Positions 47,143 to 63,988 of a stretch of DNA of 64,000 nucleotides are shown in pieces. Location of the stretch: positions 992,001 through 1,056,000 of the forward strand of contig CBDCRW010000004.1 in assembly GCA_965221125.1 (NCBI GenBank), written 5' to 3'. Each line of letters starts with the position of its first letter. Position 1 is the first letter of the stretch. This DNA is from Alphaproteobacteria bacterium (GTDB taxonomy: Bacteria; Pseudomonadota; Alphaproteobacteria; UBA828). The notes under the pieces are model-generated. The model did no database searches and was not told the DNA's origin. It worked only from the letters and a program-made list of their open reading frames with translations. Both the position numbers and the translations under genes were made by a program.

Positions 47143-47233
47143 GACACGGGCCCCGGGAAATGCCAAGGACATCGATCCGCCGTTGCACCATGACCGGCGC
47201 CGCGGCACATCGGATCGAGAACGCGGGCGGAGC

Positions 47234-50521: not shown

Positions 50522-50645
50522 TGCCGGCACTCGTGCACCTGATCCAGCCTTGTGCCGGCGGACGGATCCGCCGGGCGATCGCCGCGTTCGGCGCGAAGCC
50601 TGCCGAATCCGGTTCGCAGTCGCATGGAAATAGTTGAGGAGACAC

Positions 50646-51119
50646 ATGGCCGACGTGGTCGTCCATATCGCAGAGGCTGCGGCGTGTGCTTTGTTCGCCG
50701 CGAGCGTCGCTACCGATGTGCGCCGCCGCGAGGTTCCGAACGCCGTTCCTCTTCTGCTGCTCGGCCTCTTTGCGGTCTACGCGGCAGCGGGCGCGGTGAG
50801 GCCTCTTGGGGACCTTTGGCAGCACATTGCGGTCGGCGCGATCATTCTCGCCGCCGGGTTCGGTCTCTTTCTGACGGGGCGCTTCGGAGCCGGAGATGCC
50901 AAGCTGTTCGCCGTGGCCGGTGTCTGGATCGGTCCTGCGCTCTCCCACCTGACCCTCTTCCTGTTCGGCATGGCGGCGTTCGCGCTGGCGCTCGTCGTGG
51001 CCGCCCTTCTGCCCTTCGAGAGGATGCGGCGCATGCGCAAGGAGCTGCCGTTCGCGGTCGCGATCGCCCCGCCGGCCGTGATCGTCCTGGCTCTGCGGGC
51101 GCTCTCGGACGGGATATGA
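50646..51119 (+). CDS. cpaA: Prepilin peptidase CpaA/TadV (A24 family)
   Basis: TDVRRREVPN, FGAGDAKL, LPFAVAI; hydrophobic. Confidence 0.93.
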   Translation: MADVVVHIAEAAACALFAASVATDVRRREVPNAVPLLLLGLFAVYAAAGAVRPLGDLWQHIAVGAIILAAGFGLFLTGRFGAGDAKLFAVAGVWIGPALSHLTLFLFGMAAFALALVVAALLPFERMRRMRKELPFAVAIAPPAVIVLALRALSDGI

Positions 51120-51137: not shown

Positions 51138-52073
51138 ATGAGACGCTACCGCACCGTCATCATCATCGCGCTGATGGGCATTGTTCCCATGGTCGCGGCC
51201 GTGTTCGTGATGCGCTTCATCCTCCCTGCCGCCGAGCCGGTTCAGGCGCCGCCGCCCGTGCAGCAGGCAGCGGCGGCGCCCGCGCCGGTCGTCGAGGAGG
51301 AGCCGGACGAATTCATGGTGCTCGCGGCCGCGCGGGCGCTGCCGGTGGGCACCCTGCTGGACGAGCAGCATCTCACCGAGGTCGGCGTCGAGGAAGACAG
51401 CGTCAGGCGCTGGCATATCGGGACCGAGGACCTGGAGCCGGACGAGATGCCCTACGGCCACGTGGTGCGGCAGGCGATTTCAGCCGGCGCGCCGGTGACC
51501 CGGCAGTCCCTGGTGGGGCCCCGGCAGCGGGGCTTCCTGGCGGCGGTGCTGAAGCCCGGCATGCGGGCCATCACCGTCAGGCTCGGGGCCGGCACGCGCC
51601 ACTCGGGCCTGGTCGACCCGGGCGATCGCGTGGACGTGGTGCTGACGGCGCAGTCGCGCGATCGGGGCGAGCAGAACGTGCTTGCGCGCACGATCCTTGA
51701 GGACGTGCGCGTGGTTGCCGTGGACCGCCGCATCGGCAGTGCGGCGGGCGCTGCGGAAGGCGGCGGCGAGGTCGAACGCACGGAGATTGTGACCGCGACC
51801 CTTGAGGTTCTGCCCTCTCAGACGGGTCTGCTTGCGCTTGGAGAGCTGGAGGGGGAGCTCTCGCTTGCGGTGCGCCCGCTGGCGGCGGCCGGAGCACCGG
51901 CGGAGCCGGCGGACGTTGTGGACATGCGGAGCCTTCTGGCGCTGCCGGAGGAGAACCTGCAGCAGAAGACGGTGCGGGTCGTGCGGGGCAGTCAGGTCAC
52001 AGACGTGACTTTCGGCAACGCGCCCGGGCCTGCCCCCTTCAACGAGGCAGTGGCCGATGCAGGCCTCGAGTGA
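51138..52073 (+). CDS. cpaB: Flp pilus assembly protein CpaB/RcpC (free-standing copy)
   Basis: N-terminal TM helix; VLAAARALPVG, LKPGMRAITV, GDRVDVVL, TATLEV, GELSLAVR. Confidence 0.93.
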   Translation: MRRYRTVIIIALMGIVPMVAAVFVMRFILPAAEPVQAPPPVQQAAAAPAPVVEEEPDEFMVLAAARALPVGTLLDEQHLTEVGVEEDSVRRWHIGTEDLEPDEMPYGHVVRQAISAGAPVTRQSLVGPRQRGFLAAVLKPGMRAITVRLGAGTRHSGLVDPGDRVDVVLTAQSRDRGEQNVLARTILEDVRVVAVDRRIGSAAGAAEGGGEVERTEIVTATLEVLPSQTGLLALGELEGELSLAVRPLAAAGAPAEPADVVDMRSLLALPEENLQQKTVRVVRGSQVTDVTFGNAPGPAPFNEAVADAGLE

Positions 52074-52189: not shown

Positions 52190-53998
52190 TTGAATACCGA
52201 GAAGCTGTTCACCCGCGCCGTCACGGCGCTCCCTCAGGCGATCAGGAAGCGACTGGACAGCGGCGCGCCGCTCGACTGGACGATACTGGAGGACCCCAGG
52301 ACCGGAGCCAGGCTCGCCGAGGCGGGGCGCGTGCATGCGCGCCTGCCGGAGGCCGTCGAGGTCCTTGCGAACCGTCTGGTGAACGAGACCGGTATCGTGC
52401 CCGCCGACCTCGTCCGGGGCACGGAGCGGCAGACGGATGCCGCCGCCTGGATCCGGCAGGCCTCGATCGAGTCGGAGGGCGAGAGCTACTGTATCCGCAG
52501 TCGCCTCAGCGGCGAGGTCCATACTGGCGTCCGTCCGGAGGCCGTTGCCGGCTACGCGGTTCTGGCGCTGGAGCTTGCGGCGGCGGTGCACGAGGCGGTG
52601 GACCGCTGGATCGAGGCCGGCGAGCGGCACAGGACGGTGGACGGCGGGACGACGAGCCTTCTCGGGCTCTACGCCGTGCGCATGCTGGAACACCTGCGTC
52701 CCTCCTCCGGGAGCGGTCCCGATCGCCGGACGGCGGCAGAACTCGCTGCCGCACTCGACCGGACCTGGAACACTCAGGAACTCAAGACACGCGCCGCACT
52801 GTCCGCTATCCGTCTGCGCAACGTCCGGGGGGCGCATGCGCCGCGGCGGAGCTACTACGCACCGATGACGGGCTACCGCCTGCATTCGTTCGATCCGGGC
52901 GAGATCCGGTGGTTGTGGACTCTTGCCGAGCAGGCGATCGAGGCGGCCAGTATGGACGTCAAGAAGAAGCAAGAGGAGGAGCGACCCGCCGCGGCCCGCC
53001 CGCCTGCAGCGGCGCCTCCCCCGAAACTTCCCCCGACCGAAGCCTCGGATTCGAACGACATTTCCGCACTGGAGGCGCGCATCAGGGCGGCGAACGAAGA
53101 GACCGCCAGACTGCTTCAGCTCGGGTCGCCGGTCGAGGAGTTGGCTCCGGAGCGGGAGCTGAGCGGCCTCAGGGAAGCTGCGGAGAGGCTTCCGGACGCG
53201 GTGCGTCGGCGGATGCGCGAATCCAACGGTATCGGCTTCGCCCATGCGCTGTCGCGGCTGCGCAACACCGAGGATTCCGCTGCGGTCCGGGCGGAGCTGG
53301 GGTCCGCGTTGGCGAAACAGAGCGTTCCCCGCTGGCTGGAGGAGCTTGCCACAGCGCTGCTGGCCGACGCGGGCGCACAGAGCCGCGAGGGCACACGGAC
53401 GGGTGGCCTGCGGCTGCATGCGGAAGAGGAACCGGAGGCCGGGTATCGCGCGGTCGAGATCGAAGGCGGTGCAGCCGGGCGGATCACGGCCCTCGGGCTG
53501 ATCGAGCAGGTTCGCCTCGGCCTCTCCTTCGCCACGGACGCATGGCGGGGCCAGACCGCGATCCGCAGCGCGGGCAAGGAAGGCGGCTGGATCCTGGACA
53601 AGGGGGAGGCTGAAGGCAGCGCATTCTCTGAGAGCGAACGAGAGACCCTGGAGGCAGCACGGCAGATGGAGCAGGTGTTGGACCGCATTCAGCGCGGCCG
53701 CGGCACCGACGCGCCGACGGCGCTCGAGGAAGCGTCCATGACCGCGGGCACGTTCAGGGGGATCGGGGCTGCGACGCGCACGGCCGCAGGCTGGCCGGGA
53801 AGCGCCGAGGCTCCGGACCCCCGTGTCCCGGGCGACGTCGAGCGTATCGCGGCTGTCTCGGAGGCGTTGCACGAGCGGATCCGCTCGATCGCCAACAAAC
53901 ACATCGCGAGCTGGATCGCGGGCAACGGAGATTCCGGGGTCGGCAGGAACGGCCGCCCGGCCACGGGCCAGGACGACGGCCGCCGCACCACGGTGTGA
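52190..53998 (+). CDS. Hypothetical protein (602 aa) within the tad cluster
   Basis: Long co-oriented ORF with TTG start after AGGGAG; helical composition; no family recognised. Confidence 0.65.
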   Translation: MNTEKLFTRAVTALPQAIRKRLDSGAPLDWTILEDPRTGARLAEAGRVHARLPEAVEVLANRLVNETGIVPADLVRGTERQTDAAAWIRQASIESEGESYCIRSRLSGEVHTGVRPEAVAGYAVLALELAAAVHEAVDRWIEAGERHRTVDGGTTSLLGLYAVRMLEHLRPSSGSGPDRRTAAELAAALDRTWNTQELKTRAALSAIRLRNVRGAHAPRRSYYAPMTGYRLHSFDPGEIRWLWTLAEQAIEAASMDVKKKQEEERPAAARPPAAAPPPKLPPTEASDSNDISALEARIRAANEETARLLQLGSPVEELAPERELSGLREAAERLPDAVRRRMRESNGIGFAHALSRLRNTEDSAAVRAELGSALAKQSVPRWLEELATALLADAGAQSREGTRTGGLRLHAEEEPEAGYRAVEIEGGAAGRITALGLIEQVRLGLSFATDAWRGQTAIRSAGKEGGWILDKGEAEGSAFSESERETLEAARQMEQVLDRIQRGRGTDAPTALEEASMTAGTFRGIGAATRTAAGWPGSAEAPDPRVPGDVERIAAVSEALHERIRSIANKHIASWIAGNGDSGVGRNGRPATGQDDGRRTTV

Positions 53999-54041
53999 AG
54001 GGCGTGAGCGTCCCCGGCAGTGGGAAAGAGTGGAGGAGACC

Positions 54042-55127
54042 ATGACCAGGATTGCCACGGCCCTCGTGGCCGTCGCGGTATTGGCGGGAGTCCTGTTGTC
54101 TGCCGCCGCAGCGGTCGCCGACACCCTCGACCGCGCGCTCACGCTCGCCGCCGAGGGACGCTATCCGGAGGCACGGCGGGTTCTCGATCCCCTGCTGGAT
54201 AACGAGCCGGGCAACGCGCAGCTGCGGCTGCTGCACGGGGTCCTTCGAGTGCAGGAGGGACACAGGGGCGAAGCGATCGCCGTCTTCTCCGGACTCGCGC
54301 GGGAGTTCCCCGACATGTTCGAGGCGCACAACAATCTCGCGGTGCTCTACGTGGACGAAGGCCGGCTGGAAGAGGCGCGGGCGGTCCTGGCGGCAATTCT
54401 GGAACGGCGCCCGGAGGCCGTGGGCTACCGCAACCTGGGCGAAGTCTACGAGAAGCTTGCGAGGCGTGCCTATGCGCAGAGCCGTGCGCTCCGCGACGAC
54501 AGGTCCAGGGATGGAGATGACGACGGCGACTCCGGCACGGAGGTCCTGCAGGCGAGCGATGCGGCCGGTACCGTCTCCGAGCCTGCGACCGCGTTGGAGC
54601 CGGCATCCGGCAGCGAGCCGCCCGCGGTTCCCGAAAGGCCGGCGCCGGCCGAGGAGGCGATCGCGGCGGCCTGCCTGGCGACGGGGGAGTTCCTGGACAT
54701 GGGCACTGTCGAGGAAGCACGGCTGTGGCTGGCGGCGCTCGGCGCGGAAGCAACGCGTGTCTCGAGCGGCACTCGCGAGAGAGTCAAGGACTACCGTGTC
54801 TACCTGCCGCCCTTCGAGAGCCGCAAGGCTGCCGACGCGGCGCTCGGGGATCTGAGCGAGAAGGGCGTGAGCGACATTGCGGTGATTCCAAAGGGTGCCA
54901 GGAAGAACGCCGTCTCTCTGGGCATTTACGCCAAAGAGGCGAACGCGTCGCGGCGGGTGGCACGGTTGGAGGAGCTCGGCTACGCGCCCGTGGTGGAGCC
55001 CAATTCCATGGCGGTCGAAGAGCACGCCACGATCAAGGCGCGCCTTCCCGGCGGCTTCGAGGACCTGCGCGATGCCTGGGCGTCGAGTTTCCCTGACCAC
55101 GCTGTGCGGCAGGTGGAATGTGACTGA
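54042..55127 (+). CDS. Exported TPR + SPOR-like domain protein
   Basis: GGAGG RBS, signal peptide, TPR (EAHNNLAVLYVDEGRLEEARAVL), SPOR-like YRVYLPPFESRKAA...SLGIYAKEANASRR. Confidence 0.8.
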   Translation: MTRIATALVAVAVLAGVLLSAAAAVADTLDRALTLAAEGRYPEARRVLDPLLDNEPGNAQLRLLHGVLRVQEGHRGEAIAVFSGLAREFPDMFEAHNNLAVLYVDEGRLEEARAVLAAILERRPEAVGYRNLGEVYEKLARRAYAQSRALRDDRSRDGDDDGDSGTEVLQASDAAGTVSEPATALEPASGSEPPAVPERPAPAEEAIAAACLATGEFLDMGTVEEARLWLAALGAEATRVSSGTRERVKDYRVYLPPFESRKAADAALGDLSEKGVSDIAVIPKGARKNAVSLGIYAKEANASRRVARLEELGYAPVVEPNSMAVEEHATIKARLPGGFEDLRDAWASSFPDHAVRQVECD

Positions 55128-58100
55128 ACTCCCCGCCAGGAAATCGTCCCGGAGCCCGATCATGAATACGGCACACACCGACAGATATCCGGTCCCGGCC
55201 AAACCCGGGCAACCCCGAGCGCGCTTTTCGGTTTCGCCGTTCGAAGCCATCCGGCGCGCCGCGGCGATGGCTGCCGTTCTGTTCTCTCTTTCGGCCTGCT
55301 GGGGACTGTCCGGGGAGAGCCGCTCGCCAGGAGGCGAGCAGCTGCTGCAGAGCAACCTGTCGGTCGCATCCGCCGCGCTCGCGGCCGGCCAGCCGGCGGT
55401 TGCGCACAAGCTCTATCTGGCGCTCGCCGAGCGCTTCGACGACGCGCCCGAGCCGGTCCTCGGGCTTGGCTACATCGCCCTGCAGACGGAGAGGCCCGGC
55501 GAGGCCGGCGACCACTTCAGACGGGCCGCGAAGCTGTCGGACGATGCGCCCGGCTTGCGGGCGGAGGCGCTGCTCGGTGCCGCCCGCGCATCCCTGGCGC
55601 AGGGCGACAGCTCTGCCGCACGGCACCACCTGGCGGCAGCACGCGACCTTGCGGAGGATTCCTCGACGATCGCCTGGATCGAGAACGGCCTGGCCGTCGC
55701 TGCGGTCTTCGAGGAAGACTACCGGACCGCCGAGGCCCACTACGCAAGCGCTCTCCGCCAGCCGTCCGCCCATCCCCGCATAGCAGCCAACTTCATCCGC
55801 ATGCTCATCGCGTCCGGGCGCATCGACGTGGCGGAGCGCACGTACGGGGCCTACGCAACGTCCTATTGGGATGAAGGCGACCGGCATGCCTTGCAGAACC
55901 TGATCGGCGAGGCGAGGCGCCTGTCGCCGCCGCCCAACCGCTTCGATCCGCGCCTTCTGTTGCGGCTGACTGAGATGAAGGCGCTCCCTGACCCGGCGGA
56001 CGCCCCAGCGTACCCCGCAGACGGCGGCCTGCGCACCGGCCCGGAGGGACCCGTGCTGACGATCGGGGGCCGCTTGTTCCCGGCTACACCGGCGACGATG
56101 GCCGCGAGGCCCGCGGCGACACCGGCAGCACCCGTCCTGTCCGAACCGCCACTGGAAGAGACAGCAGATCCCGTCCCGACCTCCAAGCGAAGCGCGCCCG
56201 AATACCAGCCCTCTGTTGGGGAGCGCGGGTCGCCGCGGGCTGCAATCCCCGCCCTCGCGGCTGCACTTCCCCGCGAGGTCCCAGCGTCGTCAGTCACTCG
56301 ATCCGGCTCCTCTTCGTGGTCCGACGTACTCGTGCTGCGCATCGATCCTGAGGGCACATCACGCGAAGGAATATTGGAAGTCGATGCGCCGGTCGAAGGC
56401 CCACCTTCAGCGACATCTACCGATGAGCGGCCACCGGGCAATGCGGAGACCGATGCGGTGCCGGTGGAGGACGTACTTCCAATTGACGGCGCGCTCCGCA
56501 GCGGTTTGGTGCTGGTTGTGGCGTCCTCGCATGCTCAGGTCTCGCCCGGCTCCGCCGTGCCGGACTTCGACGCGGCCACGAGCACACCGGGGGCGCCCCC
56601 GCAGGTCCACGAACCCGGGGCGGTCCAGGCCGCCGGCATCCCTTCCGCAACCGCCGGGGTCGAGCAACAGGCGCACCGATTGGAGGCCGACCCGGTGCAG
56701 TCCGCTAACGCGCTTCTCTTGACCGTTTCCCCCCACGACGGTCCGCCACTGCGGGACAACGCGTCCCTGCGGGCCCCGTCTTCATCGGCCTCCCTCTCGC
56801 GCGAAGCCGGAGCGACCAGCGCAACACTCAAGAGTGAAGCACCCGAGGGTGCACCGCCCGAGGGCGCATCACACGTCGCGGCGGCACAGGCTTCGGGCCT
56901 GCAGTTGGCCACGATCGAAGGCGCGGGCGGAACGCACCGGTCCGAACCCGGCCCGACGCTGGTCGTAAACGTAGCGATCCTGAACGACTACTCGAACTAC
57001 GACCCGTTTTCCGCTGCACCTGCCGCCCATCGTCCCTTCCTGCTCGCCTCCGCCTCTTCGCCGTACATCGACCCGTTGTGGGAATCGGTGTGGATGCCGA
57101 AAGGGAGCGGAGCGGGCTTTCATACCTTTGCGGCGGTTGAATCGGAGAGCCACGACGACTGGCTTCCGCAGGTTGCCGAGACGGCACCGCCGGAGCCGGC
57201 TCGGAGCGACGAATGGACAGTTCTGCTGGGAACGGGCCACAGGCTCACTCTTGGCGTCGACGCTGCGGCGGTCGCGATTGCGTCTCCCGAGATTGCCGAC
57301 GTCCAGCTGCTTACGCCTCGGGTTCTGTTCGTCATGGGGCGGAACCTGGGCCGTACCACCGTCTCGGTACTCGGCGAGGACGGGTCCGTATTCGAGCGGG
57401 ACGTGTCGGTCGTTCTGGATATTGAGCCCCTGCGCGCGCTGTTGGCCGGAGAGCCCGGCCTGCAAGGGGTGCAGGTGGAAAGCCTCACCCGCGGCGTTGC
57501 CCTGGCCGGGGATGTCGACTCGCAAGAGGCGGCGGATCGGGCGCTCGGTCTCGCGACGGTATCGCTCCCCGAAGGCACTCTGGTCGAGAACAACCTCGAC
57601 GTCGGGTTGGATCTGGAGCCGTTGCGGGCCCTCCTCGCGGGCGAGCCCGGCTTCGCCGATGTTGCGGTCAAACGGGTCGGCCGGGGCGTGGCGCTCACCG
57701 GCGAGGTCGCCTCGGCAGAGTCCGCCGACCGGGCGCGTCGGCTGGCCTTGACCGCGGTTCCGGAAGGCCTCCCGGTGGAGAATAACCTTCGGGTGATTAT
57801 CGACATCGAGCCTCTTCGTACGGTTCTGGCCGCAAAGCCGGGGCTCGATCGAGTTCAGGTACAGCGTCTGGCCCGCGGTGTGGCACTTGCAGGCGAGGTG
57901 GACACACCGGAGGCTGCCGACCGCGCCCTTCGTCTGGCCGCAGCCTCTCTGCCGGAAGGCGTGCTGGTGGAGAATAATCTGAACCTGATCCTCGATCTCT
58001 TGCCGCTGAAGGCGCTCCTTGCTGCCGAGACCGGACTGGCCCACGTTCATGTGCGGCAGGTGGCTTGGGGTGTCGCTCTGGCCGGCGAAGTCGCTTCGGC

Positions 58101-61100
58101 GCGGTCCGCCGACTTGGCGCATCGGCTTGCGGTCGCCTCTCTCCCTGAGAGCGTGCCGGTGGAGAACAACCTGCGGGTGGTGGACCTTGAGCCGCTGCGC
58201 GCTGTTCTGGCCGGGGAGGCCGGCCTGCGAGGCGTGCGCGTGGAGAGCCTGACGCACGAGGTCGCACTTGTGGGCGAAGTCGCCTCGCCGGCTCTGGTGG
58301 ACCTGGCGGTCCGTCTCGCCGCCGACTTTCTACCGGAGAGCGTACCGGTGGAGAACAACCTGCGGGTAGTGGACCTTTCGCCGCTGCGCGTGCTTCTGGC
58401 GGGCGAGCCCGGACTTGGAGGCGTTGAGGTCCGCCGGCTCGGTCGGGGCGTGGCGCTCGCCGGTGAGGTTGCCTCGGCAGAAACATCCGAAAGGGCGCAC
58501 AGCCTCGCCTTGGTCACGCTTCCAGAAGACCTGCCGGTCGAGAACAACCTTCGAATCGTGTTCGACACCGGGCCCCTGCTCGAGATCCTGGCGGGCGAGC
58601 CCGGTCTCGAGCGGGTGCGGGTGCAGCGTCTCGCCCGGGGAGTCGCTCTGTCGGGCTACGTCGATTCGCCAGTTGCGGCTGAGCGCGCGCGCGGTCTGGC
58701 TTCCGCGTCTCTCCCGGAAGGCTTGGCGGTGCAAGACAATCTGACCGTAGGCCTGGGCCTTGAGCCGCTTCGTGAACTCCCGGCCGGCGAGCCCGGCCTG
58801 GACGATCTCGCGCCGCTGCGCGTCTTCATCACCGAGGAACCTGGCCTAGAGGGCGTCGTGGTGCGGCGCGTCGGCCGCGGCGTCGCGCTGACGGGCGAGG
58901 TGGCTTCGGTAGAGGATGCCGAAAGGGCACGGCGGCTGGTCGTGGCCGCTTTGCCGGAGACCGTTCCGGTGGAGAACAACCTGCGCGTGGTGCCGGACAT
59001 CGAGCCCCTGACCACCGTCTTCGCTTCGGAGCCCGGACTGGAAGGCGTGCAGGTGAAACGCCTCCCACGTGGCGTCGCCCTCGCGGGGCACGTCGACTCG
59101 CAGGAGGGGGCGGACCGGGCGCTCGGTCTCGCGACGGCGTCGCTCCCGGAGAACACGCTGATCGAGAACAACCTCGACATCGGGCTGGACCTGGGGCCGC
59201 TGCGGGCGCTGCTCGCGGGCGAGTCCGGCTTCGCCGATGTCGAAGTCCAGCGGGTCGGCAGGGGCATAGCGCTCACCGGCGAGGTCGCTTCGCCGGAGGT
59301 TGCCGATCGCGCACACCGGCTTGCCGCAGCCTCGCTACCGGAAACCGTTCCGGTAGAAAACAGCCTGCGTGTCGAGTTCGATATTGTGCCGCTGCGTGTG
59401 CTTCTGGCCGGAGAAGCCGGTCTGGAACGCGTGCAGGTGCAGCGGCTTGCCCGGGGCGTGGCCCTGTCAGGCTACGTCGAGTCGCCGGCCGCGGCGGAGC
59501 GCGCGCTCGGTCTGGCCTCCGCATCTCTTCCGGAAGGCTTGCTTGTCGAGGACAATCTGACCGCAGGCCTTGGTCTCGAGCCGCTTCGTGCACTCCTGGC
59601 CGGCGAGCCCGGTCTGGACGACCTCTCGCCGCTGCGCGCTTTCATAGCCGGCGAGCCCGGTCTCGAGGGCGTCGAGGTGCAGCGGGTCGGCCGGGGCGTG
59701 GCGCTCACCGGCGAGGTCGCTTCGGCAGAGGATGCCGAAAGGGCACGTCGCCTTGCCGTGGCGGCTCTCCCGGAGGGCGTTCCGGTGGAGAACAACCTGC
59801 GGGTGGTGTTCGACATCGTGCCTCTGCGTGTGCTTCTGGCCGGAGAAGCAGGCCTGGATCGCGTGCATGTCCAGCGGCTCGCCCGGGGGGTGGCCCTTGC
59901 GGGCTACGTCGGCTCACCTGCGGCGGAAGACCGCGCGCTTCGGCTTGCCGCCGCCTCCCTGCCGGAAGGCCTGCTGATCGAGAACAACCTGGACGTGGGG
60001 CTGGACCTCGATCCGCTGCGCGTACTGCTGATCGGCGAGCCCGGCCTCGATAGCGTCGCGGCACGGCGCGTGGGCCGGGGCGTGGCGCTCACCGGCGAGG
60101 TCGCTTCGGCGGACGCTGCCGATCGGGCACATCGGCTTGCAGTGGCCTCGCTCCCCGAGAACCTGCTGGTGGAGAACAACCTGCGCGTGCAGTTCGACAT
60201 CGAGCCCCTGCGCGCTGTCCTGGCGGCCGAGCCGGGCCTGGAAGGGATCCAGGTGCGGCAGCTCGCGCGAGGCGTGGCGCTCGCCGGCGAGGTCGCCTCG
60301 CCGGAGGCCGCAGATCGGGCCTCTCGGCTAGCCGCCGCCTCTCTGCCGGAAGGCCTGATCGTGGAGAACAACCTTGAGGTGGGTCTGGACCTGGAGCCTT
60401 TGCGCGCTCTCATGTCGGGCGAGAGCGGTCTCGAAGGCGTCGAGGTGAGGCGCATCGGCCGGGGCGTGGCGCTCACGGGCGAGGTCGCTTCGGCAGACGC
60501 TGCCGATCGGGCGCACCGTCTGGCAGTGGCCTCCCTTCCCGAGAGCCTCCTGGTGGAGAACAACCTGCGCGTGCAGTTCGACATCGAGCCGCTTCGCACT
60601 GTCCTCGCTGCGGAGCCCGGCCTGGAGCAAGTCCGCGTACAGCGGCTAGCGCGAGGCGTGGCGCTTGCCGGCGAGGTCGCCTCGCCGGAGGCCGCGGACC
60701 GGGCGCACCGTCTGGCCGTTGCCTCACTGCCGGGTGGCCTGCTGGTCGAGAACAATATGAGCGTGGTTCTGGACCTCGTGCCGCTCCAGGCGCTCATGGC
60801 CGGCGAGTCCGGCCTGAAGGGAGTCGAGGTGCAGCGGGTCGGCCAGGGCGTGGCGCTCACGGGCGAGGTCGCTTCGGCAGAGGCGTCCGACCGGGCGTAC
60901 CGTCTGATCGCAGCCTCTCTCCCCGACAGCCTGCCGGTGGAGAACAACCTTCGGGTGGTGTTCGACATCGGTCCGTTGCGCGCGGTTCTGGCCGGCGAGC
61001 CCGAACTGGACCGCATCCAGGTGCAGGAGCTGGGCAGAGGCGTCGTGCTGACCGGCGAGGTCGCTTCGGCGGAGGCGTCGGACCGGGCACACCGGATCGC

Positions 61101-63288
61101 CACGGCGTCGCTCCCGGAAGGCGTGCCGGTGGAGAACAGCCTGCGCGTGGTCCCGGACATCGAACACCTGCGCGCGGCCCTGGCCGGCGAACCCGGACTG
61201 GATCGCGTTCAGGTTCAGCGGCTCGCGCGCGGCGTGGCGCTTTCCGGCGACGTCGACTCGCATGCGGCGGAAGGCCGCGCACTCCGGCTGGCGGCAGCCT
61301 CACTTCCGGAAGGCGTGCCGGTGGAGAACAACCTGCACGTGGGACTGGACCTCGCGCCTCTGCGCTCGCTGGTGGCCGGCGAGCGCGGTCTGAAGGACGT
61401 TCGTGTGCAGCGGACAGGCCGCGGTGTTGCGCTCATCGGCGAGGTGGGTTCGGCCGAGGCGTCCGATCAGGCCTCCCGCCTCGCGGCCGCGCTTCTCCCG
61501 GAAGACATGCCTGTCGAGAACAACCTGCGCGTGGTGTGGGACGTGGAGCCGCTGCGCGCGCTTCTGGCCGGATCGCCCGATCTGGAACGCGTGCAGGTTC
61601 AGCGCCTTGCGCGTGGCGTCGTGCTCAGCGGGGATGTCGACTCGCATGCGACGGCCGACCTGGCGCTTCGCCTGGCTGCGGCATCCGTGCCGGAAGGCGT
61701 TCTGGTGGAGAACAACCTGAACGTGCGACTGGACCTGGCGCCACTGCGGGTGCTCATTGCAGGTGTACCGGACTTGCGCAACGTCCGGGTGAAACGGATC
61801 GGACGGGGCGTGGCGCTCTCGGGCGAGGTGGGCTCGGCGGAAGCGTCAGATAGGGCACTTCGGCTCGCCGTGGCCTCGCTGCCCGAGGGTATTGCGGTCG
61901 AGAACGGCCTGCGCATAGCGCCGGATGTCGAACCGCTGCGGGCGCTCCTGGCCGGGGAACCCGGTCTTGAGCGGGTGCACGTGCAGAAACTCGCGCGTGG
62001 CGTCGCGCTGGCCGGCGATGTCGCTTCGCCGAAAGCCGCAGACCGGGCGCTGCGTCTTGCCGCCGCTTCCCTGCCCGAAGGCATGCTGGTGGAAGACAAC
62101 CTGAACGTCGGGTTGAATCTTGCGCCTCTCGAAGCGCTCATGGTTGCGGAGGAGGGCTTCGAGAGCATCCGCCTCAACCGGATCGACCGAGGCGTGGCGC
62201 TGACCGGCGAGGTGGGGTCGCAGACGGAAGCGGAACGTGCTGCCCGTCTTGCGGCTGCCACGCTCCCTGAGGACGCTCTGGTCGAGAACAACCTGCGCGT
62301 GGTGCTGGATTCCGGACCTCTTCGTGCGGCCCTTGCGGGTGATCCGGAGTTCGACCGCGTCCACGTGCGCGATCTTGGGCATGGCGTATCGCTGAGCGGC
62401 GAGGTCAGCTCGGCTGCGGCCGCCGATCGGGCGCACCGACTTGCCGCCGTTTCGCTGCCTGCGGACACGCTGGTGGAGAACAACCTGCGCATCGCCGGGC
62501 CCCTGCAGGTGAACCTGGAGGTGCAGATCGCGGAGGTGCAGCGCTCCATCGCCGAGGAATTCGGGTTCAACTGGGAGCTCTTCGGACGTTCTGCCGAGGG
62601 GGATCTGGGAGGCAGCTTCCGGATCGGACGGCAGAACAGGACCGAGCAAGCCATGGTGGACGGATTGCCGTCGCCGTCCCTCATTCTATCGAGAACGTGG
62701 GAAGAGATCGGCATTACCGGCATGGTCGATGCACTTGCGAAAGCGGGCCTTGCTAACGTGCTGGCCCGGCCCAACGTCACCGCCAACTCGGGCGAGACCG
62801 CGTCCTTCTTCTCGGGTGGTGAGTTTCCGCTGCCGTCCGGCTTCAAGGACGGGGTGATCGTCTTCGAGTACAAGAAGTACGGTGTCGTTCTGGACTTCGT
62901 ACCGACGATCGTTGACGACGGCAGGGTCGAGCTTACGGTTCGTCCCGAGGTTTCCGAGCCCTCGCAGGATAACTCGGTGCAGGTTGCCGGCGGCGTCAAC
63001 GTCCCCGTGATCAACGTGCGCCGTGCCGAGACTACCGTCGAGATGGGCGACGGCGAGTCGATCGTGATCGCAGGGCTCTTCAGCAGCACCTCGAACGAAG
63101 TGCAGTCGGGGGTGCCGGTGCTCAAGGATCTGCCGCTGCTCGGTGCGATGTTCGGACACACCTCGACCCGGGCGGACGAGCTGGAGCTGATCGTCACCGT
63201 GACCGCCCGCCTGGTGCAGGCCGGGCCCGCGCCGGGCGACGCGATCACGGCCGGATCCGGACAAGCCAACAACAGTTACTACTACTGA
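55120..63288 (+). CDS. Giant CpaC/RcpA secretin: TadD-like TPR lipoprotein + linker + pilus N-domain + 26 BON-like repeats + secretin domain
   Basis: Lipobox LSAC (Cys at 55297); TPRs; N-domain AVAIASPEIADVQLL...GRTTV (~57211-57420); repeats 57421-62500; secretin QVNLEVQIAEV, SGETASFFSGGEFP, GVPVLKDLPLLGAMF. Start uncertain (GTG 55120, ATG 55162 or ATG 55267). Confidence 0.9.
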   Translation: MTELPARKSSRSPIMNTAHTDRYPVPAKPGQPRARFSVSPFEAIRRAAAMAAVLFSLSACWGLSGESRSPGGEQLLQSNLSVASAALAAGQPAVAHKLYLALAERFDDAPEPVLGLGYIALQTERPGEAGDHFRRAAKLSDDAPGLRAEALLGAARASLAQGDSSAARHHLAAARDLAEDSSTIAWIENGLAVAAVFEEDYRTAEAHYASALRQPSAHPRIAANFIRMLIASGRIDVAERTYGAYATSYWDEGDRHALQNLIGEARRLSPPPNRFDPRLLLRLTEMKALPDPADAPAYPADGGLRTGPEGPVLTIGGRLFPATPATMAARPAATPAAPVLSEPPLEETADPVPTSKRSAPEYQPSVGERGSPRAAIPALAAALPREVPASSVTRSGSSSWSDVLVLRIDPEGTSREGILEVDAPVEGPPSATSTDERPPGNAETDAVPVEDVLPIDGALRSGLVLVVASSHAQVSPGSAVPDFDAATSTPGAPPQVHEPGAVQAAGIPSATAGVEQQAHRLEADPVQSANALLLTVSPHDGPPLRDNASLRAPSSSASLSREAGATSATLKSEAPEGAPPEGASHVAAAQASGLQLATIEGAGGTHRSEPGPTLVVNVAILNDYSNYDPFSAAPAAHRPFLLASASSPYIDPLWESVWMPKGSGAGFHTFAAVESESHDDWLPQVAETAPPEPARSDEWTVLLGTGHRLTLGVDAAAVAIASPEIADVQLLTPRVLFVMGRNLGRTTVSVLGEDGSVFERDVSVVLDIEPLRALLAGEPGLQGVQVESLTRGVALAGDVDSQEAADRALGLATVSLPEGTLVENNLDVGLDLEPLRALLAGEPGFADVAVKRVGRGVALTGEVASAESADRARRLALTAVPEGLPVENNLRVIIDIEPLRTVLAAKPGLDRVQVQRLARGVALAGEVDTPEAADRALRLAAASLPEGVLVENNLNLILDLLPLKALLAAETGLAHVHVRQVAWGVALAGEVASARSADLAHRLAVASLPESVPVENNLRVVDLEPLRAVLAGEAGLRGVRVESLTHEVALVGEVASPALVDLAVRLAADFLPESVPVENNLRVVDLSPLRVLLAGEPGLGGVEVRRLGRGVALAGEVASAETSERAHSLALVTLPEDLPVENNLRIVFDTGPLLEILAGEPGLERVRVQRLARGVALSGYVDSPVAAERARGLASASLPEGLAVQDNLTVGLGLEPLRELPAGEPGLDDLAPLRVFITEEPGLEGVVVRRVGRGVALTGEVASVEDAERARRLVVAALPETVPVENNLRVVPDIEPLTTVFASEPGLEGVQVKRLPRGVALAGHVDSQEGADRALGLATASLPENTLIENNLDIGLDLGPLRALLAGESGFADVEVQRVGRGIALTGEVASPEVADRAHRLAAASLPETVPVENSLRVEFDIVPLRVLLAGEAGLERVQVQRLARGVALSGYVESPAAAERALGLASASLPEGLLVEDNLTAGLGLEPLRALLAGEPGLDDLSPLRAFIAGEPGLEGVEVQRVGRGVALTGEVASAEDAERARRLAVAALPEGVPVENNLRVVFDIVPLRVLLAGEAGLDRVHVQRLARGVALAGYVGSPAAEDRALRLAAASLPEGLLIENNLDVGLDLDPLRVLLIGEPGLDSVAARRVGRGVALTGEVASADAADRAHRLAVASLPENLLVENNLRVQFDIEPLRAVLAAEPGLEGIQVRQLARGVALAGEVASPEAADRASRLAAASLPEGLIVENNLEVGLDLEPLRALMSGESGLEGVEVRRIGRGVALTGEVASADAADRAHRLAVASLPESLLVENNLRVQFDIEPLRTVLAAEPGLEQVRVQRLARGVALAGEVASPEAADRAHRLAVASLPGGLLVENNMSVVLDLVPLQALMAGESGLKGVEVQRVGQGVALTGEVASAEASDRAYRLIAASLPDSLPVENNLRVVFDIGPLRAVLAGEPELDRIQVQELGRGVVLTGEVASAEASDRAHRIATASLPEGVPVENSLRVVPDIEHLRAALAGEPGLDRVQVQRLARGVALSGDVDSHAAEGRALRLAAASLPEGVPVENNLHVGLDLAPLRSLVAGERGLKDVRVQRTGRGVALIGEVGSAEASDQASRLAAALLPEDMPVENNLRVVWDVEPLRALLAGSPDLERVQVQRLARGVVLSGDVDSHATADLALRLAAASVPEGVLVENNLNVRLDLAPLRVLIAGVPDLRNVRVKRIGRGVALSGEVGSAEASDRALRLAVASLPEGIAVENGLRIAPDVEPLRALLAGEPGLERVHVQKLARGVALAGDVASPKAADRALRLAAASLPEGMLVEDNLNVGLNLAPLEALMVAEEGFESIRLNRIDRGVALTGEVGSQTEAERAARLAAATLPEDALVENNLRVVLDSGPLRAALAGDPEFDRVHVRDLGHGVSLSGEVSSAAAADRAHRLAAVSLPADTLVENNLRIAGPLQVNLEVQIAEVQRSIAEEFGFNWELFGRSAEGDLGGSFRIGRQNRTEQAMVDGLPSPSLILSRTWEEIGITGMVDALAKAGLANVLARPNVTANSGETASFFSGGEFPLPSGFKDGVIVFEYKKYGVVLDFVPTIVDDGRVELTVRPEVSEPSQDNSVQVAGGVNVPVINVRRAETTVEMGDGESIVIAGLFSSTSNEVQSGVPVLKDLPLLGAMFGHTSTRADELELIVTVTARLVQAGPAPGDAITAGSGQANNSYYY
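57421..62500 (+). repeat. 26 diverged ~192-bp (64-aa) tandem repeats
   Basis: Consensus EPLRALLAGEPGLxxVxVxRxxRGVALxGEVASxxAADRAxRLAxASLPExxxVENNLxVxxD, counted by hand. Confidence 0.93.
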
Positions 63289-63328
63289 GGACGGTGCCGC
63301 CGTGCAGTTTCTCCTCCTGGAGTACGCA

Positions 63329-63988
63329 ATGAGGAACACGCGCCCGATAGATGTCCCCGCTTCGCGGGAGAGAGATGCAGCCGCCCCCGCGGTGGCCTCG
63401 ACTCCTGCCGCAAACCATCCTGCCGGGACGCGTCTCCGCAATGCGGCCGTGCCAGATCCGAATGCCGGCTCAATTCCGGCGGGCTTCCTCTCCCTCCGCG
63501 GCGATATCCCGGATGGAGAGCGCCCGCCTGACCGACGCAACGCAGGAAACATTGTCGTGCCCGACCTCCCGACCCGCAGCCGTCCAGCCGCCATCACCGC
63601 CGCCCTGTGTGTCGTCGTCGTTCTCGGCGGCTGCCAGGAGCGGCTGGCGCAACGCGATACCTACTTCGCTCCCCTGCGCGGCTTGAGCGCCTCTCTGCAT
63701 GCGGAGACGGAGCACGTGCTGGATTATCATCAGGCCATGCAGGCCGCGCTGCATGGATGCAGCAAGAGCCAGCGCGCGACTGCAACACCGAGCGTCATGG
63801 GGCCGGCGAACGTGGTGCCGGAGGGAGCGTTGGATCCCGACGCGCAGGCGCGGCTCTGCGCATCCTCCGGGATCACGCATGCTACGCACGGGGCGCCGTT
63901 GAACGGCTACCGGCGTTGGGTGGGAGACCAGGTCCGCGAGTTGCCCGCGCCGTCCGAGACGGCCTCCTCGATCGGAGGCGGCTCTTGA
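63329..63988 (+). CDS. Putative lipoprotein in the CpaD position downstream of the secretin
   Basis: Lipobox VVVLGGC; C-terminal YRRWVGDQVRELP reminiscent of CpaD-related tails. Start uncertain. Confidence 0.55.
   Translation: MRNTRPIDVPASRERDAAAPAVASTPAANHPAGTRLRNAAVPDPNAGSIPAGFLSLRGDIPDGERPPDRRNAGNIVVPDLPTRSRPAAITAALCVVVVLGGCQERLAQRDTYFAPLRGLSASLHAETEHVLDYHQAMQAALHGCSKSQRATATPSVMGPANVVPEGALDPDAQARLCASSGITHATHGAPLNGYRRWVGDQVRELPAPSETASSIGGGS

What the first reader, a model, noticed from the sequence alone, without database searches (positions are those of the whole stretch)
57421..62500. Secretin with 26 tandem BON-like domains
Seen: 26 repeats of ~64 aa between the pilus-formation N-domain and the secretin barrel, each with helix - beta-beta (GVALxGxV) - helix - VENNL. 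Established: CpaC/RcpA secretins normally have about one BON-like domain here, and secretins oligomerise into rings. Inference: stacked rings could form a very long periplasmic conduit or a multivalent peptidoglycan-binding scaffold, with repeat number setting its length. The repeats differ from each other in DNA, which argues against an assembly expansion.
Basis: partly seen in the sequence, partly recalled or inferred. Interest (0 to 1): 0.88.

Follow-up and report, generated by a model that had tools for sequence, protein, structure and literature searches.

The report
Giant Tad secretin with 26 BON domains
This is a real 2708-residue outer-membrane pore protein of an adhesive-pilus machine in which one small periplasmic domain has been multiplied 26 times, a lineage-specific oddity of sponge-associated bacteria whose purpose is still unknown.

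Summary
One gene (window 55162-63288, +) encodes a 2708-aa protein. In order it has a lipoprotein signal, a TPR domain like a PilF-type pilotin, a ~430-aa disordered linker, the Tad secretin N-domain (PF13629), 26 BON units (57406-62487) and a CpaC/RcpA-type secretin barrel.

The units share 57-83% DNA identity. They alternate between two subtypes (A/B), are predicted to fold as alpha-beta-beta-alpha-beta, and match DolP, OsmY, YscD and CdsD in structure.

The array is not an assembly artefact. All 26 units have collinear orthologues in an independent MAG, dN/dS is 0.18-0.25, and contigs from three studies tile the array.

It is the only secretin found in the genome and sits in a Tad pilus locus. 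About 40 database relatives carry 9-47 units. The nearest outgroups have the same fused architecture with one unit, and ordinary CpaC homologues have one or none.

The function of the array is inferred, not shown. My preferred reading is a rigid, linker-less periplasmic stalk, possibly a stack of rings, that lengthens the secretin's reach and changes length by gaining or losing A/B pairs. A multivalent envelope-binding scaffold remains a serious rival.

I class it as a new variant of a known kind. No paper describing it was found.

The parts
55162..63288 (+). Whole gene: 2708-aa lipoprotein secretin. ATG at 55162 is preceded by GGAG; the stop codon is included.
   Evidence: The open frame 54895-63288 has no stop. 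Codon-position GC looks coding from about 55195 onward but not in the first 100 codons. Start and RBS were read. The database copy P0015 and relatives were called with the same N-terminus.
55162..55299 (+). Signal peptide ending in lipobox L-S-A-C (Cys codon 55297-55299)
   Evidence: Sequence read. A lipobox is present in 9 of 12 loci examined (window, L002-L007, L010, L012).
55297..55920 (+). TPR domain of about 11 helices, similar in size and fold to the pilotin PilF
   Evidence: Pfam TPR_19 and TPR_16. AF2 model has pLDDT >85 for residues 11-200. By Foldseek, PilF 2fi7_A has E=1.1e-4 and TMt 0.71, among many generic TPR proteins. In the profile search PilF scores E=1.3e-4 and TadD (8odn_B) only 0.077.
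55927..57210 (+). Ala/Pro/Ser-rich linker of about 430 aa with no recognised domain
   Evidence: Composition A17 P13 S12 %. No Pfam hit. AF2 pLDDT <50 where the model enters the linker. Its length is 423-508 aa in 22 complete giant relatives and does not correlate with unit number (rho -0.24, p 0.28).
57211..57411 (+). Tad secretin N-domain (T2SS-T3SS_pil_N, PF13629)
   Evidence: Pfam E=7.3e-13, P0001 residues 773-839.
57406..62487 (+). 26 tandem BON units in the subtype order (AB)x9 then A-A-B-A-B-A-B-A
58744..58983 (+). Unit 8: 80 aa, with a 16-aa duplication of the first helix
   Evidence: Its counterpart in L004 is among the shorter HMM envelopes (61 aa).
59560..59799 (+). Unit 12: 80 aa, with the same kind of 16-aa duplication
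62488..63285 (+). Secretin barrel domain (Pfam core 62731-63216) with a conserved aromatic C-terminal tip (…YYY)
   Evidence: PF00263 E=1.9e-40. Best solved relative is RcpA 8odn_A, E=5.5e-37. C-termini of relatives end in YYY or FYY.
50634..51119 (+). Prepilin peptidase (Peptidase_A24)
   Evidence: Syntenic in L003, L007, L009 and L010.
51138..52073 (+). CpaB/RcpC alignment-complex protein
   Evidence: PF16976 E=6.7e-26. Synteny.
52190..53998 (+). Conserved 602-aa protein without a Pfam family
   Evidence: 44-98% identical copies at the same position in L003, L004 and L007.
53823..55127 (+). TPR + SPOR (peptidoglycan-binding) protein immediately upstream
   Evidence: Synteny.
63302..63988 (+). 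Small predicted lipoprotein (lipobox L-G-G-C) at the position CpaD occupies in Caulobacter. It has no Pfam match.
   Evidence: Conserved downstream of the secretin in L002-L004, L007, L010 and L011.
39075..40490 (+). CpaF/TadA-type ATPase of the same Tad system, about 15 kb upstream
   Evidence: PF00437 E=1.6e-66.
43435..44430 (+). TadC-like platform protein (T2SSF). A second T2SSF and a second RcpC-like domain lie in the open frame 40400-43417.

Best explanation
The gene encodes the outer-membrane secretin of a Tad (Flp-type) pilus machine. Three features are unusual. (1) It is a lipoprotein whose N-terminus carries a TPR domain like a PilF/TadD-type pilotin, so secretin and pilot appear to be fused. 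(2) A ~430-residue disordered linker follows. (3) The single BON/N3-position domain that ordinary CpaC secretins place between the N-domain and the barrel is present 26 times.

Shown: the domain order, the BON fold of the units, the A/B alternation, purifying selection on each unit, positional orthology with relatives, and the Tad context.

Inferred: each protomer is probably a stiff rod of 26 domains. This rests on the units abutting without linkers; in the model, the last strand of each unit runs across the unit boundary. The fold is also the one used as a ring-building module in secretion-system basal bodies. In the 12-14-mer secretin these rods would together form a long periplasmic stalk, most simply a stack of rings continuing the secretin vestibule. 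That stalk would hold the CpaB-docking N-domain far from the barrel. The long linker would let the lipid-anchored N-terminus stay at the membrane.

[quoted passage not shown] The eight barrel-proximal units are conserved in order in all three giant loci compared.
For: Architecture and BON assignment: Pfam BON E=3.8e-110, PF13629, PF00263 and TPR.

Fold: the AF2 model of units 13-16 has pLDDT 89.6. Each unit reads H-E-E-H-E, and the third strands (residues 59-66, 124-130, 187-194) cross the 64-residue unit boundaries. Foldseek top hits are YscD 4alz (E=1e-8), OsmY, CdsD, DolP and PrgH. By VIA-align, DolP gives Z 9.3 with rmsd 2.0 A over 65 residues, and CdsD, OsmY and YscD give Z 9.2-9.7. The domain just before the barrel of a solved Tad-like secretin (8jvb_A residues 96-156) gives Z 5.9 with rmsd 2.2 A over 55 residues.

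Published text (passages seen): CpaC has one classical N3 domain plus a VirB9-like N-domain. The same region is called BON. RcpC/CpaB forms the periplasmic conduit that docks on RcpA (abstract).

Context: this is the only secretin found in a 92%-complete genome. Prepilin peptidase, CpaB, a CpaE-like ATPase, CpaF and TadB/C lie nearby. The same operon order is seen in L003 and L004.

Reality and selection: 26 of 26 units have collinear reciprocal best hits in L004. Units 9-26 match L003 units 3-20, though 16 of those 18 are reciprocal best hits. dN/dS is 0.25, 0.18 and 0.19 against L004, L003 and L002. A/B order is conserved.

Variation: 9-47 units in relatives, and one unit in the nearest outgroups with the same TPR fusion.

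Linker: ~70-100 aa in one-unit relatives (coordinates; 95 aa in P0060) against 423-508 aa in giant forms.

A parallel: unrelated GspD-type secretins carry 27-38 Secretin_N stretches.
Against: No result here shows that the units oligomerise into rings or line a channel.

Unit number varies about five-fold (9-47) among relatives whose last unit plus barrel region is 57-99% identical to the window's. That is hard to reconcile with a structure that must exactly span a fixed periplasm.

At a recalled, uncomputed figure of roughly 2.5-3.5 nm per domain, 26 stacked domains would far exceed a usual Gram-negative periplasm. Nothing is known about the envelope of this organism.

Linker length does not scale with unit number within the giant family.

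The match to the N3-position domain of 8jvb is modest (Z 5.9), and many unrelated small alpha/beta domains score similarly.

The TPR domain is only generically TPR by sequence; TadD scores E=0.077.

No Flp pilin gene was found.
Confidence: 0.45

Rival explanations
1. The BON array does not form a conduit. It is a multivalent envelope-binding or buffering scaffold. About 13 x 26 BON domains would hang from the secretin and bind phospholipid, peptidoglycan or other envelope components. They would anchor or cushion the pilus port, or act as a local OsmY-like holdase layer.
For: The best single-domain structural matches are to free BON proteins: DolP (Z 9.3, rmsd 2.0 A) and OsmY (Z 9.5), followed by BonA. 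The DolP entry title itself names phospholipid binding. NCBIfam also reports OsmY-like and ArfA/OmpATb-like matches. The A/B pair as the repeating module recalls dual-BON proteins. A five-fold range of unit number is easier to tolerate for a valency device than for a fitted tube. Neighbouring genes encode peptidoglycan-binding modules: SPOR upstream and AMIN-amidase downstream.
Against: Units keep individual positional orthology and a strict A/B order across species. That suggests a defined architecture rather than interchangeable binding beads. There are no flexible linkers between units. The domain sits exactly where secretins place ring domains. No ligand-binding residue was tested.
Confidence: 0.27
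2. The expansion has little function. It is a runaway, tolerated repeat amplification in one lineage, and the machine works despite it.
For: Distribution is patchy: the gene was found in 6 of 20 other genomes of the genus. Unit numbers differ widely between relatives.
Against: dN/dS is 0.18-0.25 over the array. Each unit is closer to its orthologue (0.88-1.00 identity with L004) than to any paralogue in L004 (second-best 0.62-0.93). The frame stays open over 5 kb in dozens of independent contigs. This is the only secretin found in the genome.
Confidence: 0.1
3. The count of 26 is an assembly artefact (collapsed, expanded or chimeric repeats), or the frame holds two genes (a TPR lipoprotein and a secretin) rather than one.
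For: No single Logan contig spans the whole array. One low-depth contig in run X1 joins 57675 to 62461 (depth 3, only 21 bases on one side). High-GC genomes keep long frames open by chance.
Against: Units are only 57-83% identical in DNA. Contigs from three DNA runs of three studies cover all 30 bins with pieces up to 2.0-2.4 kb. An independently assembled MAG has all 26 units in the same order plus one extra pair. The contig is 1.12 Mb. The fused TPR-secretin frame is kept in one-unit relatives at 41-45% identity, and 22 giant proteins passed my completeness filters for the fused form (lipobox, TPR-end motif, aromatic C-terminus).
Confidence: 0.04

Closest known systems
RcpA / CpaC, the secretins of Tad (Flp) pili (solved: P. 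aeruginosa RcpA-TadD, 8odn; Acidithiobacillus caldus secretin, 8jvb)
   Same: The secretin barrel (RcpA E=5.5e-37), the PF13629 N-domain, and the Tad locus context with CpaB, CpaE-like, CpaF and TadB/C genes.
   Different: RcpA has no domain between N-domain and barrel, and other homologues and CpaC have one N3/BON (passages). Here there are 26. In those systems the pilotin TadD is a separate lipoprotein. Here a lipidated TPR domain is part of the same polypeptide.
Dual-BON periplasmic proteins OsmY and DolP, and BonA
   Same: The fold of each unit (VIA Z 9.3-9.5; DolP rmsd 2.0 A over 65 residues), and a two-domain (A/B) module.
   Different: Those are small soluble or lipid-anchored proteins with one to two BON domains and no pore. 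Here 13 A/B-like pairs are inserted into a secretin.
Tandem ring-building domains of T3SS basal-body proteins (YscD/CdsD/PrgH) and secretin N1-N3 domains
   Same: Head-to-tail alpha-beta-beta-alpha-beta domains in the periplasmic part of a ring-forming secretion machine. Periplasmic secretin domains 'often form stacked rings' (passage).
   Different: Known machines use about one to four such domains per chain (recalled, not computed here), against 26 here. Ring formation by these units is not shown.
Liposecretins such as HxcQ of P. aeruginosa
   Same: A secretin that is itself a lipoprotein and can reach the outer membrane without a separate pilotin (passage in PMC3542185). This protein has a lipobox.
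   Different: HxcQ is a T2SS secretin. No TPR domain or BON array in it is known to me (recalled). Self-piloting was not tested here.
Giant GspD-type secretins found here (P0045, 4348 aa; P0052, 3426 aa, labelled Phycisphaerales)
   Same: The same principle: a small periplasmic secretin domain multiplied tens of times upstream of the barrel (38 and 27 Secretin_N stretches).
   Different: A different repeated domain (PF03958, not BON), a different secretin subfamily (27-32% identity to the last unit plus barrel region) and a different phylum. This looks like convergence rather than kinship.

Membership tests
CpaC/RcpA-type Tad secretin | C-terminal Secretin domain (PF00263) most similar to Tad secretins | tested here: met
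   PF00263 E=1.9e-40, profile positions 1-168 of 169. The best solved relative is RcpA 8odn_A, E=5.5e-37.
CpaC/RcpA-type Tad secretin | N-terminal pilus-formation domain (PF13629, VirB9-like) | tested here: met
   E=7.3e-13, above the 23-bit cut-off.
CpaC/RcpA-type Tad secretin | Encoded in a Tad locus with CpaB/RcpC, prepilin peptidase, CpaE/TadZ, CpaF/TadA and TadB/C | tested here: met
   with synteny. The CpaE-like call is weak (ParA/MinD-type P-loop matches only). No Flp pilin was found.
CpaC/RcpA-type Tad secretin | Forms a 12-14-mer outer-membrane channel for the pilus | not testable with these tools
   Needs biochemistry or cryo-EM.
BON domain (PF04972) | Significant match to the family profile | tested here: met
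   360.7 bits against a 27-bit cut-off; 19 stretches pass on their own. In the six-frame genome search, 19 matches lie in this frame, 6 of them over the cut-off (one only with its neighbours).
BON domain (PF04972) | alpha-beta-beta-alpha-beta fold superposable on solved BON domains | tested here: met
   DSSP pattern. DolP 6xmv Z 9.3 with rmsd 2.0 A over 65 residues; OsmY Z 9.5; BonA Z 7.5. Foldseek E=5e-7 for OsmY.
BON domain (PF04972) | Phospholipid or envelope binding | not testable with these tools
Secretin N3 / ring-building motif | Lies directly N-terminal of the secretin barrel | tested here: met
   Unit 26 ends at P0001 residue 2531. The sequence that aligns with the start of the 8jvb secretin region begins about 5 residues later.
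Secretin N3 / ring-building motif | Structural equivalence to the N3-position domain of a solved Tad-like secretin | tested here: inconclusive
   8jvb_A residues 96-156 give Z 5.9 with rmsd 2.2 A over 55 residues. Many unrelated small domains score alike.
Secretin N3 / ring-building motif | Assembles into rings in the oligomer | not testable with these tools
   Needs a structure of the multimer.
TadD/PilF-type pilotin (for the N-terminal domain) | Lipoprotein signal with lipobox cysteine | tested here: met
   L-S-A-C at residues 43-46. Conserved in 9 of 12 loci.
TadD/PilF-type pilotin (for the N-terminal domain) | About five TPR repeats forming a grooved crescent of ~200-250 residues | tested here: met
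   11 helices within residues 11-208 at pLDDT >85. PilF 2fi7_A has TMt 0.71 over 221 columns. The groove itself was not inspected.
TadD/PilF-type pilotin (for the N-terminal domain) | Specific sequence kinship to TadD or PilF beyond generic TPR | tested here: inconclusive
   In the profile search PilF scores E=1.3e-4 and TadD (8odn_B) E=0.077. Generic and designed TPR proteins score as well or better.
TadD/PilF-type pilotin (for the N-terminal domain) | Binds the C-terminal tip of its secretin | not tested
   The conserved aromatic C-terminus is only suggestive.

The most novel reading that the evidence does not exclude
Secretins can lengthen their periplasmic channel almost without limit by serially duplicating a ring-building domain. 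In this reading, 26 (up to 42-47 in relatives) stacked 12-14-mer BON rings form a tube several times longer than a normal periplasm. That tube would serve a sponge symbiont with an unusually wide or multilayered envelope, and unit number would act as an evolvable ruler. The same solution would have arisen independently in giant GspD-type secretins (Phycisphaerales label) using Secretin_N domains. The fused lipidated TPR pilot and long linker would keep the N-terminus tethered at the outer membrane.
Probability: 0.22. Interest if true: 0.85.

Novelty: new variant of a known kind. Interest (0 to 1): 0.66.

Why it matters
Secretin periplasmic domains are thought to set how the outer-membrane pore couples to the inner-membrane machine. 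Studied systems use about one to four such domains (recalled).

A natural series with 1, 3, and 9 to more than 40 copies of the same domain, in otherwise syntenic Tad operons, is a ready-made experiment. It bears on what these domains do and on how far a trans-envelope machine can be stretched.

The series also exposes a fused pilotin-secretin design. It points to a possibly unusual cell envelope in an uncultured group of sponge-associated Alphaproteobacteria.

If the array is instead an envelope-binding scaffold, it would be the largest BON assembly I am aware of (recalled), and a handle on the still unclear function of BON domains.

Tried and rejected
Oligomer prediction. Four copies of one A/B pair (alignment A1, residues 1-128) were sent to complex prediction. 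The verdict was 'no answer' (score 0.00, controls not run). This is no evidence either way.

Assembly artefact. Rejected for the reasons given under rival explanations. The Logan contigs could not give an end-to-end count. No listed piece spans the array, and gaps between listed pieces prove nothing.

RNA evidence. The metatranscriptome run X15 has short contigs in 12 of 30 bins. DNA carry-over cannot be excluded, so I do not claim expression.

Linker as a ruler. I tested whether linker length scales with unit number. It does not (rho -0.24, p 0.28, 22 proteins). That count kept only proteins with a lipobox in the first 110 residues, a C-terminal aromatic pair and a recognisable TPR-end motif. 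This dropped 20 of the 42 BON-bearing proteins, including the complete 42-unit P0003.

TadD kinship of the TPR domain. Neither the single-sequence nor the profile search against solved structures gave significance for TadD. TadD was not among the listed Foldseek rows. I keep 'pilotin-like' as an inference.

Flp pilin. Not found with PF04964 in the genome (92% complete) or with a class-III signal motif scan of the window. Short pilins are easily missed.

Secretin chains in the fold searches. No secretin N-domain appears among the listed Foldseek rows. The only secretin match listed by VIA-align is the modest 8jvb match.

Unit counts in outgroups. The '0 units' class rests on an HMM built from this protein's own units, so it may miss divergent BON domains.

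Literature. No paper describing multi-BON or giant Tad secretins was found with the term sets. Supplementary figures of PMC10499894 (domain schemes of RcpA homologues) could bear on the usual N3 count, and I could not see them.

The per-domain size I quote is recalled.
Full report
WHAT IS THERE. The window holds one very long open frame, 54895-63288 on the + strand. Codon-position GC content looks coding from about 55195 onward but not in the first 100 codons. The likely start is the ATG at 55162, eight bases after a GGAG, which gives a protein of 2708 residues. The public protein collection holds this exact protein (P0015) and relatives called with the same N-terminus.

Pfam finds, in order, TPR repeats, the Tad secretin N-domain PF13629 (E=7.3e-13), BON PF04972 (E=3.8e-110, 19 stretches passing on their own) and Secretin PF00263 (E=1.9e-40). 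The N-terminus has a signal peptide ending in an L-S-A-C lipobox. Between the TPR domain and PF13629 lie about 430 residues rich in Ala, Pro and Ser with no recognised domain.

THE REPEATS. Anchoring on the VENNL-like motif gives 26 units that fill P0001 residues 838-2531, window 57406-62487. Twenty-two units are 64 aa, two are 63 aa, and two (units 8 and 12) are 80 aa because the first helix is partly duplicated. Over the last 58 codons of each unit, protein identity is 45-84% (mean 62%) and DNA identity is 57-83% (mean 67%).

Tandem Repeats Finder scores a 384-nt period higher than the 192-nt one. The reason is that units come in two subtypes that alternate. Scored against subtype HMMs, the order is (AB)x9 followed by A-A-B-A-B-A-B-A. 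The array has a net charge of -79 and uses Arg almost exclusively as its basic residue (150 R against 9 K).

FOLD. I modelled units 13-16 with AlphaFold2. The alignment held 27 in-phase four-unit stretches from this gene and from three giant relatives (A1). The model has mean pLDDT 89.6 and pTM 0.59. Each unit reads helix, strand, strand, helix, strand. The last strand of each unit (residues 59-66, 124-130, 187-194) runs across the 64-residue boundary, so no flexible linker separates the units.

Foldseek against the PDB ranks YscD (E=1e-8), OsmY, CdsD, DolP and PrgH first. An independent all-against-representatives alignment gives CdsD Z 9.7, OsmY 9.5, DolP 9.3 (rmsd 2.0 A over 65 residues), YscD 9.3 and BonA 7.5. 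It also gives a modest Z 5.9 (rmsd 2.2 A over 55 residues) for residues 96-156 of the solved Tad-like secretin 8jvb, the domain just before its barrel. The BON assignment is therefore confirmed. Equivalence to the secretin N3 position is supported by location and weakly by structure.

NOT AN ARTEFACT. The contig is 1.12 Mb in a 7-contig genome. In an independently assembled MAG (L004), all 26 units have collinear reciprocal best hits at 88-100% identity. The best paralogue in L004 reaches 62-93%. L004 simply has one extra pair after unit 1. In L003, units 9-26 match its units 3-20 in order, though 16 of those 18 are reciprocal best hits. In L002 the last eight units are orthologous.

dN/dS over orthologous units is 0.25, 0.18 and 0.19 against L004, L003 and L002. 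Logan contigs of three DNA runs from three studies, labelled sponge metagenome for two of them, cover all 30 bins of 56800-63400 with pieces up to 2.0-2.4 kb. None spans the whole array. One low-depth contig with only 21 bases on one side suggests a 4785-base skip, which I regard as a repeat artefact. A metatranscriptome run has short contigs in 12 of 30 bins, which is not proof of transcription.

CONTEXT. This is the only Secretin-domain match in the genome (92% complete). Upstream, in the same orientation, lie a prepilin peptidase, CpaB/RcpC, a conserved 602-aa protein without a family, and a TPR+SPOR protein. Downstream lie a small predicted lipoprotein at the CpaD position and a weak ParA/MinD-like CpaE candidate.

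About 15 kb upstream are a CpaF-type ATPase, two T2SSF platform proteins, a second RcpC-like domain and a TadE-like protein. The order peptidase, CpaB, 602-aa protein, TPR-SPOR, secretin, lipoprotein, CpaE-like is kept in L003 and, as far as the locus reaches, in L004. The same partners accompany the one-unit relatives. No Flp pilin was found.

RELATIVES AND THE USUAL COUNT. I ran a word-indexed search restricted to proteins of 1489-4739 aa, using the last four units plus the barrel as query. It returned 51 proteins. Forty-two of them, including the window's own, have the same architecture and carry 9-47 units by an HMM built from this protein's units. Complete proteins reach 42 units; the 47-unit protein lacks the barrel. 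The other nine have no BON units and are GspD-type secretins.

An exhaustive HMMER search of 1.84 billion cluster representatives with the last 1200 residues found 28,767 hits at E<=0.001. I scanned the 146 of the best 150 that were new. Of these, 91 have one unit, 48 none and 7 three or more (18, 10, 6, 6, 3, 3, 3), and at least five of those seven (18, 10, 6, 3, 3) look like fragments of giant forms.

Among species-representative genomes, three loci are giant (21, about 29 and 37 units). Seven of the eight closest others (55-63% identity, 619-873-aa frames) carry one unit and one carries none by my HMM. All five of these that I scanned with Pfam have TPR, N-domain and barrel, four also with a BON match. 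Their records are labelled as alphaproteobacterial MAGs.

In the GTDB family of the window (44 genomes including G000), 12 have a match at E<=1e-20. Within the genus, 6 of 20 other genomes do, with frames of 2876, 2828, 3411, 2218 and 2398 (two in one genome), 955 and 417 aa. Other genera have 348-546-aa frames at 37-43% identity.

So one BON is the norm. The TPR fusion is older and wider than the expansion. The expansion is confined to part of one genus, with an intermediate form of three units (P0055; the 955-aa frame in G026 is of similar length).

WHAT THE LITERATURE SAYS (passages seen unless noted).
- In P. aeruginosa RcpA, the N-domain joins the barrel by a 20-residue linker, and other homologues insert an N3 domain there.
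- Secretin periplasmic domains 'often form stacked rings'.
- TadD is a lipidated five-TPR pilotin with a PilF-like fold that binds the last five residues of RcpA in its groove (PMC10499894).
- Caulobacter CpaC is modelled in situ with one classical N3 domain and a VirB9-like N-domain. CpaD, encoded just downstream, wraps the barrel (bioRxiv 10.1101/2025.11.05.686773).
- The same CpaC region is called BON in PMC3459982.
- RcpC forms a dodecameric periplasmic conduit that binds RcpA (abstract of PMC12307814).
- HxcQ is a secretin that is itself a lipoprotein and needs no pilotin (PMC3542185).

THE N-TERMINAL DOMAIN. I aligned nine lipobox-to-+270 stretches (A2). The window's domain is 41-45% identical to the one-unit relatives. 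The AF2 model has eleven confident helices within residues 11-208 and then loses confidence as it enters the linker. PilF is the best bacterial match and covers nearly its whole length (TMt 0.71). Designed and eukaryotic TPR proteins score equally well. By profile, PilF scores E=1.3e-4 and TadD only 0.077. The family's C-terminus is a conserved aromatic tip. A pilot-secretin fusion is therefore plausible but not shown.

HOW IT PROBABLY WORKS. Shown: this is the Tad secretin of the organism, with an in-place multiplication of the N3-position BON domain. The multiplication is maintained by purifying selection unit by unit. It changes in length by whole A/B pairs in the distal part of the array, while the eight barrel-proximal units stay fixed in order.

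Inferred: because the units abut without linkers, each chain should be a stiff rod, and 12-14 such rods hang from one barrel. The simplest arrangement, by analogy with N1-N3 rings and T3SS ring-building domains, is a long stack of rings that extends the vestibule and carries the CpaB-docking N-domain at its far end. The roughly four-fold longer disordered linker in the giant family (423-508 aa against about 70-100 aa) fits this, because the lipid-anchored N-terminus must still reach its membrane.

Against this reading: unit number varies five-fold among close relatives. The linker does not scale with it. A straight stack would exceed a usual periplasm, by a per-domain size that is recalled rather than computed. 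I put this reading at about 0.45, a multivalent envelope-binding scaffold at about 0.27, a tolerated runaway expansion at about 0.10, and artefact or two genes at about 0.04.

A PARALLEL. The nine non-BON hits are 3426-4348-aa GspD-type secretins. The two I scanned have 38 and 27 Secretin_N stretches before the barrel, and one is labelled Phycisphaerales. Two unrelated secretin lineages have therefore multiplied a small periplasmic domain tens of times. This makes a length-related function more attractive, but it is only an analogy.

NOVELTY AND SCORE. The gene family exists in databases without names. I found no paper on multi-BON or giant Tad secretins with the term sets. It is a new variant of a known kind: a CpaC/RcpA-type secretin with an unprecedented domain multiplication and a fused pilotin-like lipoprotein domain. 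I score interest at 0.66. The architecture is real, striking and offers a natural dosage series for experiments, but its mechanism is still open.

Noticed in passing
P0045 and P0052 (proteins; not in the window): Giant GspD-type secretins of 4348 and 3426 aa with 38 and 27 Secretin_N (PF03958) stretches before the barrel. One is labelled Phycisphaerales. This is an apparently convergent case of multiplying a periplasmic domain in secretins.
   Followed up: partly
window 40400-43417 (+): A single 1005-codon open frame holds an extensin-like Pro-rich stretch, a second RcpC/CpaB-like domain (residues 213-328) and a T2SSF (TadB-like) domain (838-959). It is either several genes in one frame or an unusual fusion.
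   Followed up: no
window 34825-39078 (+): A 1417-aa ORF directly upstream of, and abutting, the CpaF-type ATPase has no Pfam match at E<=0.001.
   Followed up: no
window 47183-50521 (+): A 1112-aa protein with He_PIG Ig-like and SprB repeats lies just upstream of the prepilin peptidase. It is a possible surface adhesin associated with the pilus locus.
   Followed up: no
window 52190-53998 (+): A 602-aa protein without any Pfam family is conserved between CpaB and the TPR-SPOR gene in L003 and L004 (88-98% identity) and in L007 (44%). It looks like an uncharacterised component of this Tad subtype.
   Followed up: partly
G000:C5:37327-38414 (-): Four further BON matches above the Pfam cut-off lie in two open frames of 294 and 326 aa, two each. 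These are OsmY/DolP-like dual-BON proteins elsewhere in the genome.
   Followed up: no
G034 (C3:407153-408181 and C2:667928-669013), same genus: One genome of the genus carries two giant copies, with open frames of 2218 and 2398 aa. G025 carries a giant copy plus a 762-aa copy at 57% identity.
   Followed up: no
window 58744-58983 and 59560-59799: Units 8 and 12 each carry a 16-aa partial duplication of the first helix (GLxxEPLRxL…DDL + xPLRxF…). Their L004 counterparts are among the shorter HMM envelopes. The duplication marks an older four-unit duplication inside the array.
   Followed up: partly
window 57675 / 62461: One low-depth Logan contig of run X1 (depth 3, 21 bases on one side) joins unit 2 to unit 26, skipping 4785 bases. 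It is probably a repeat-induced chimera, but a rare short allele is not excluded.
   Followed up: no
L001 2678-3925, 4999-5781, 5825-7036 (window 64678 onward, outside the window): Downstream of the CpaE-like gene lie a staphylococcal-nuclease-domain protein, an OMP beta-barrel and an AMIN+Amidase_3 (AmiC-like) peptidoglycan amidase.
   Followed up: no
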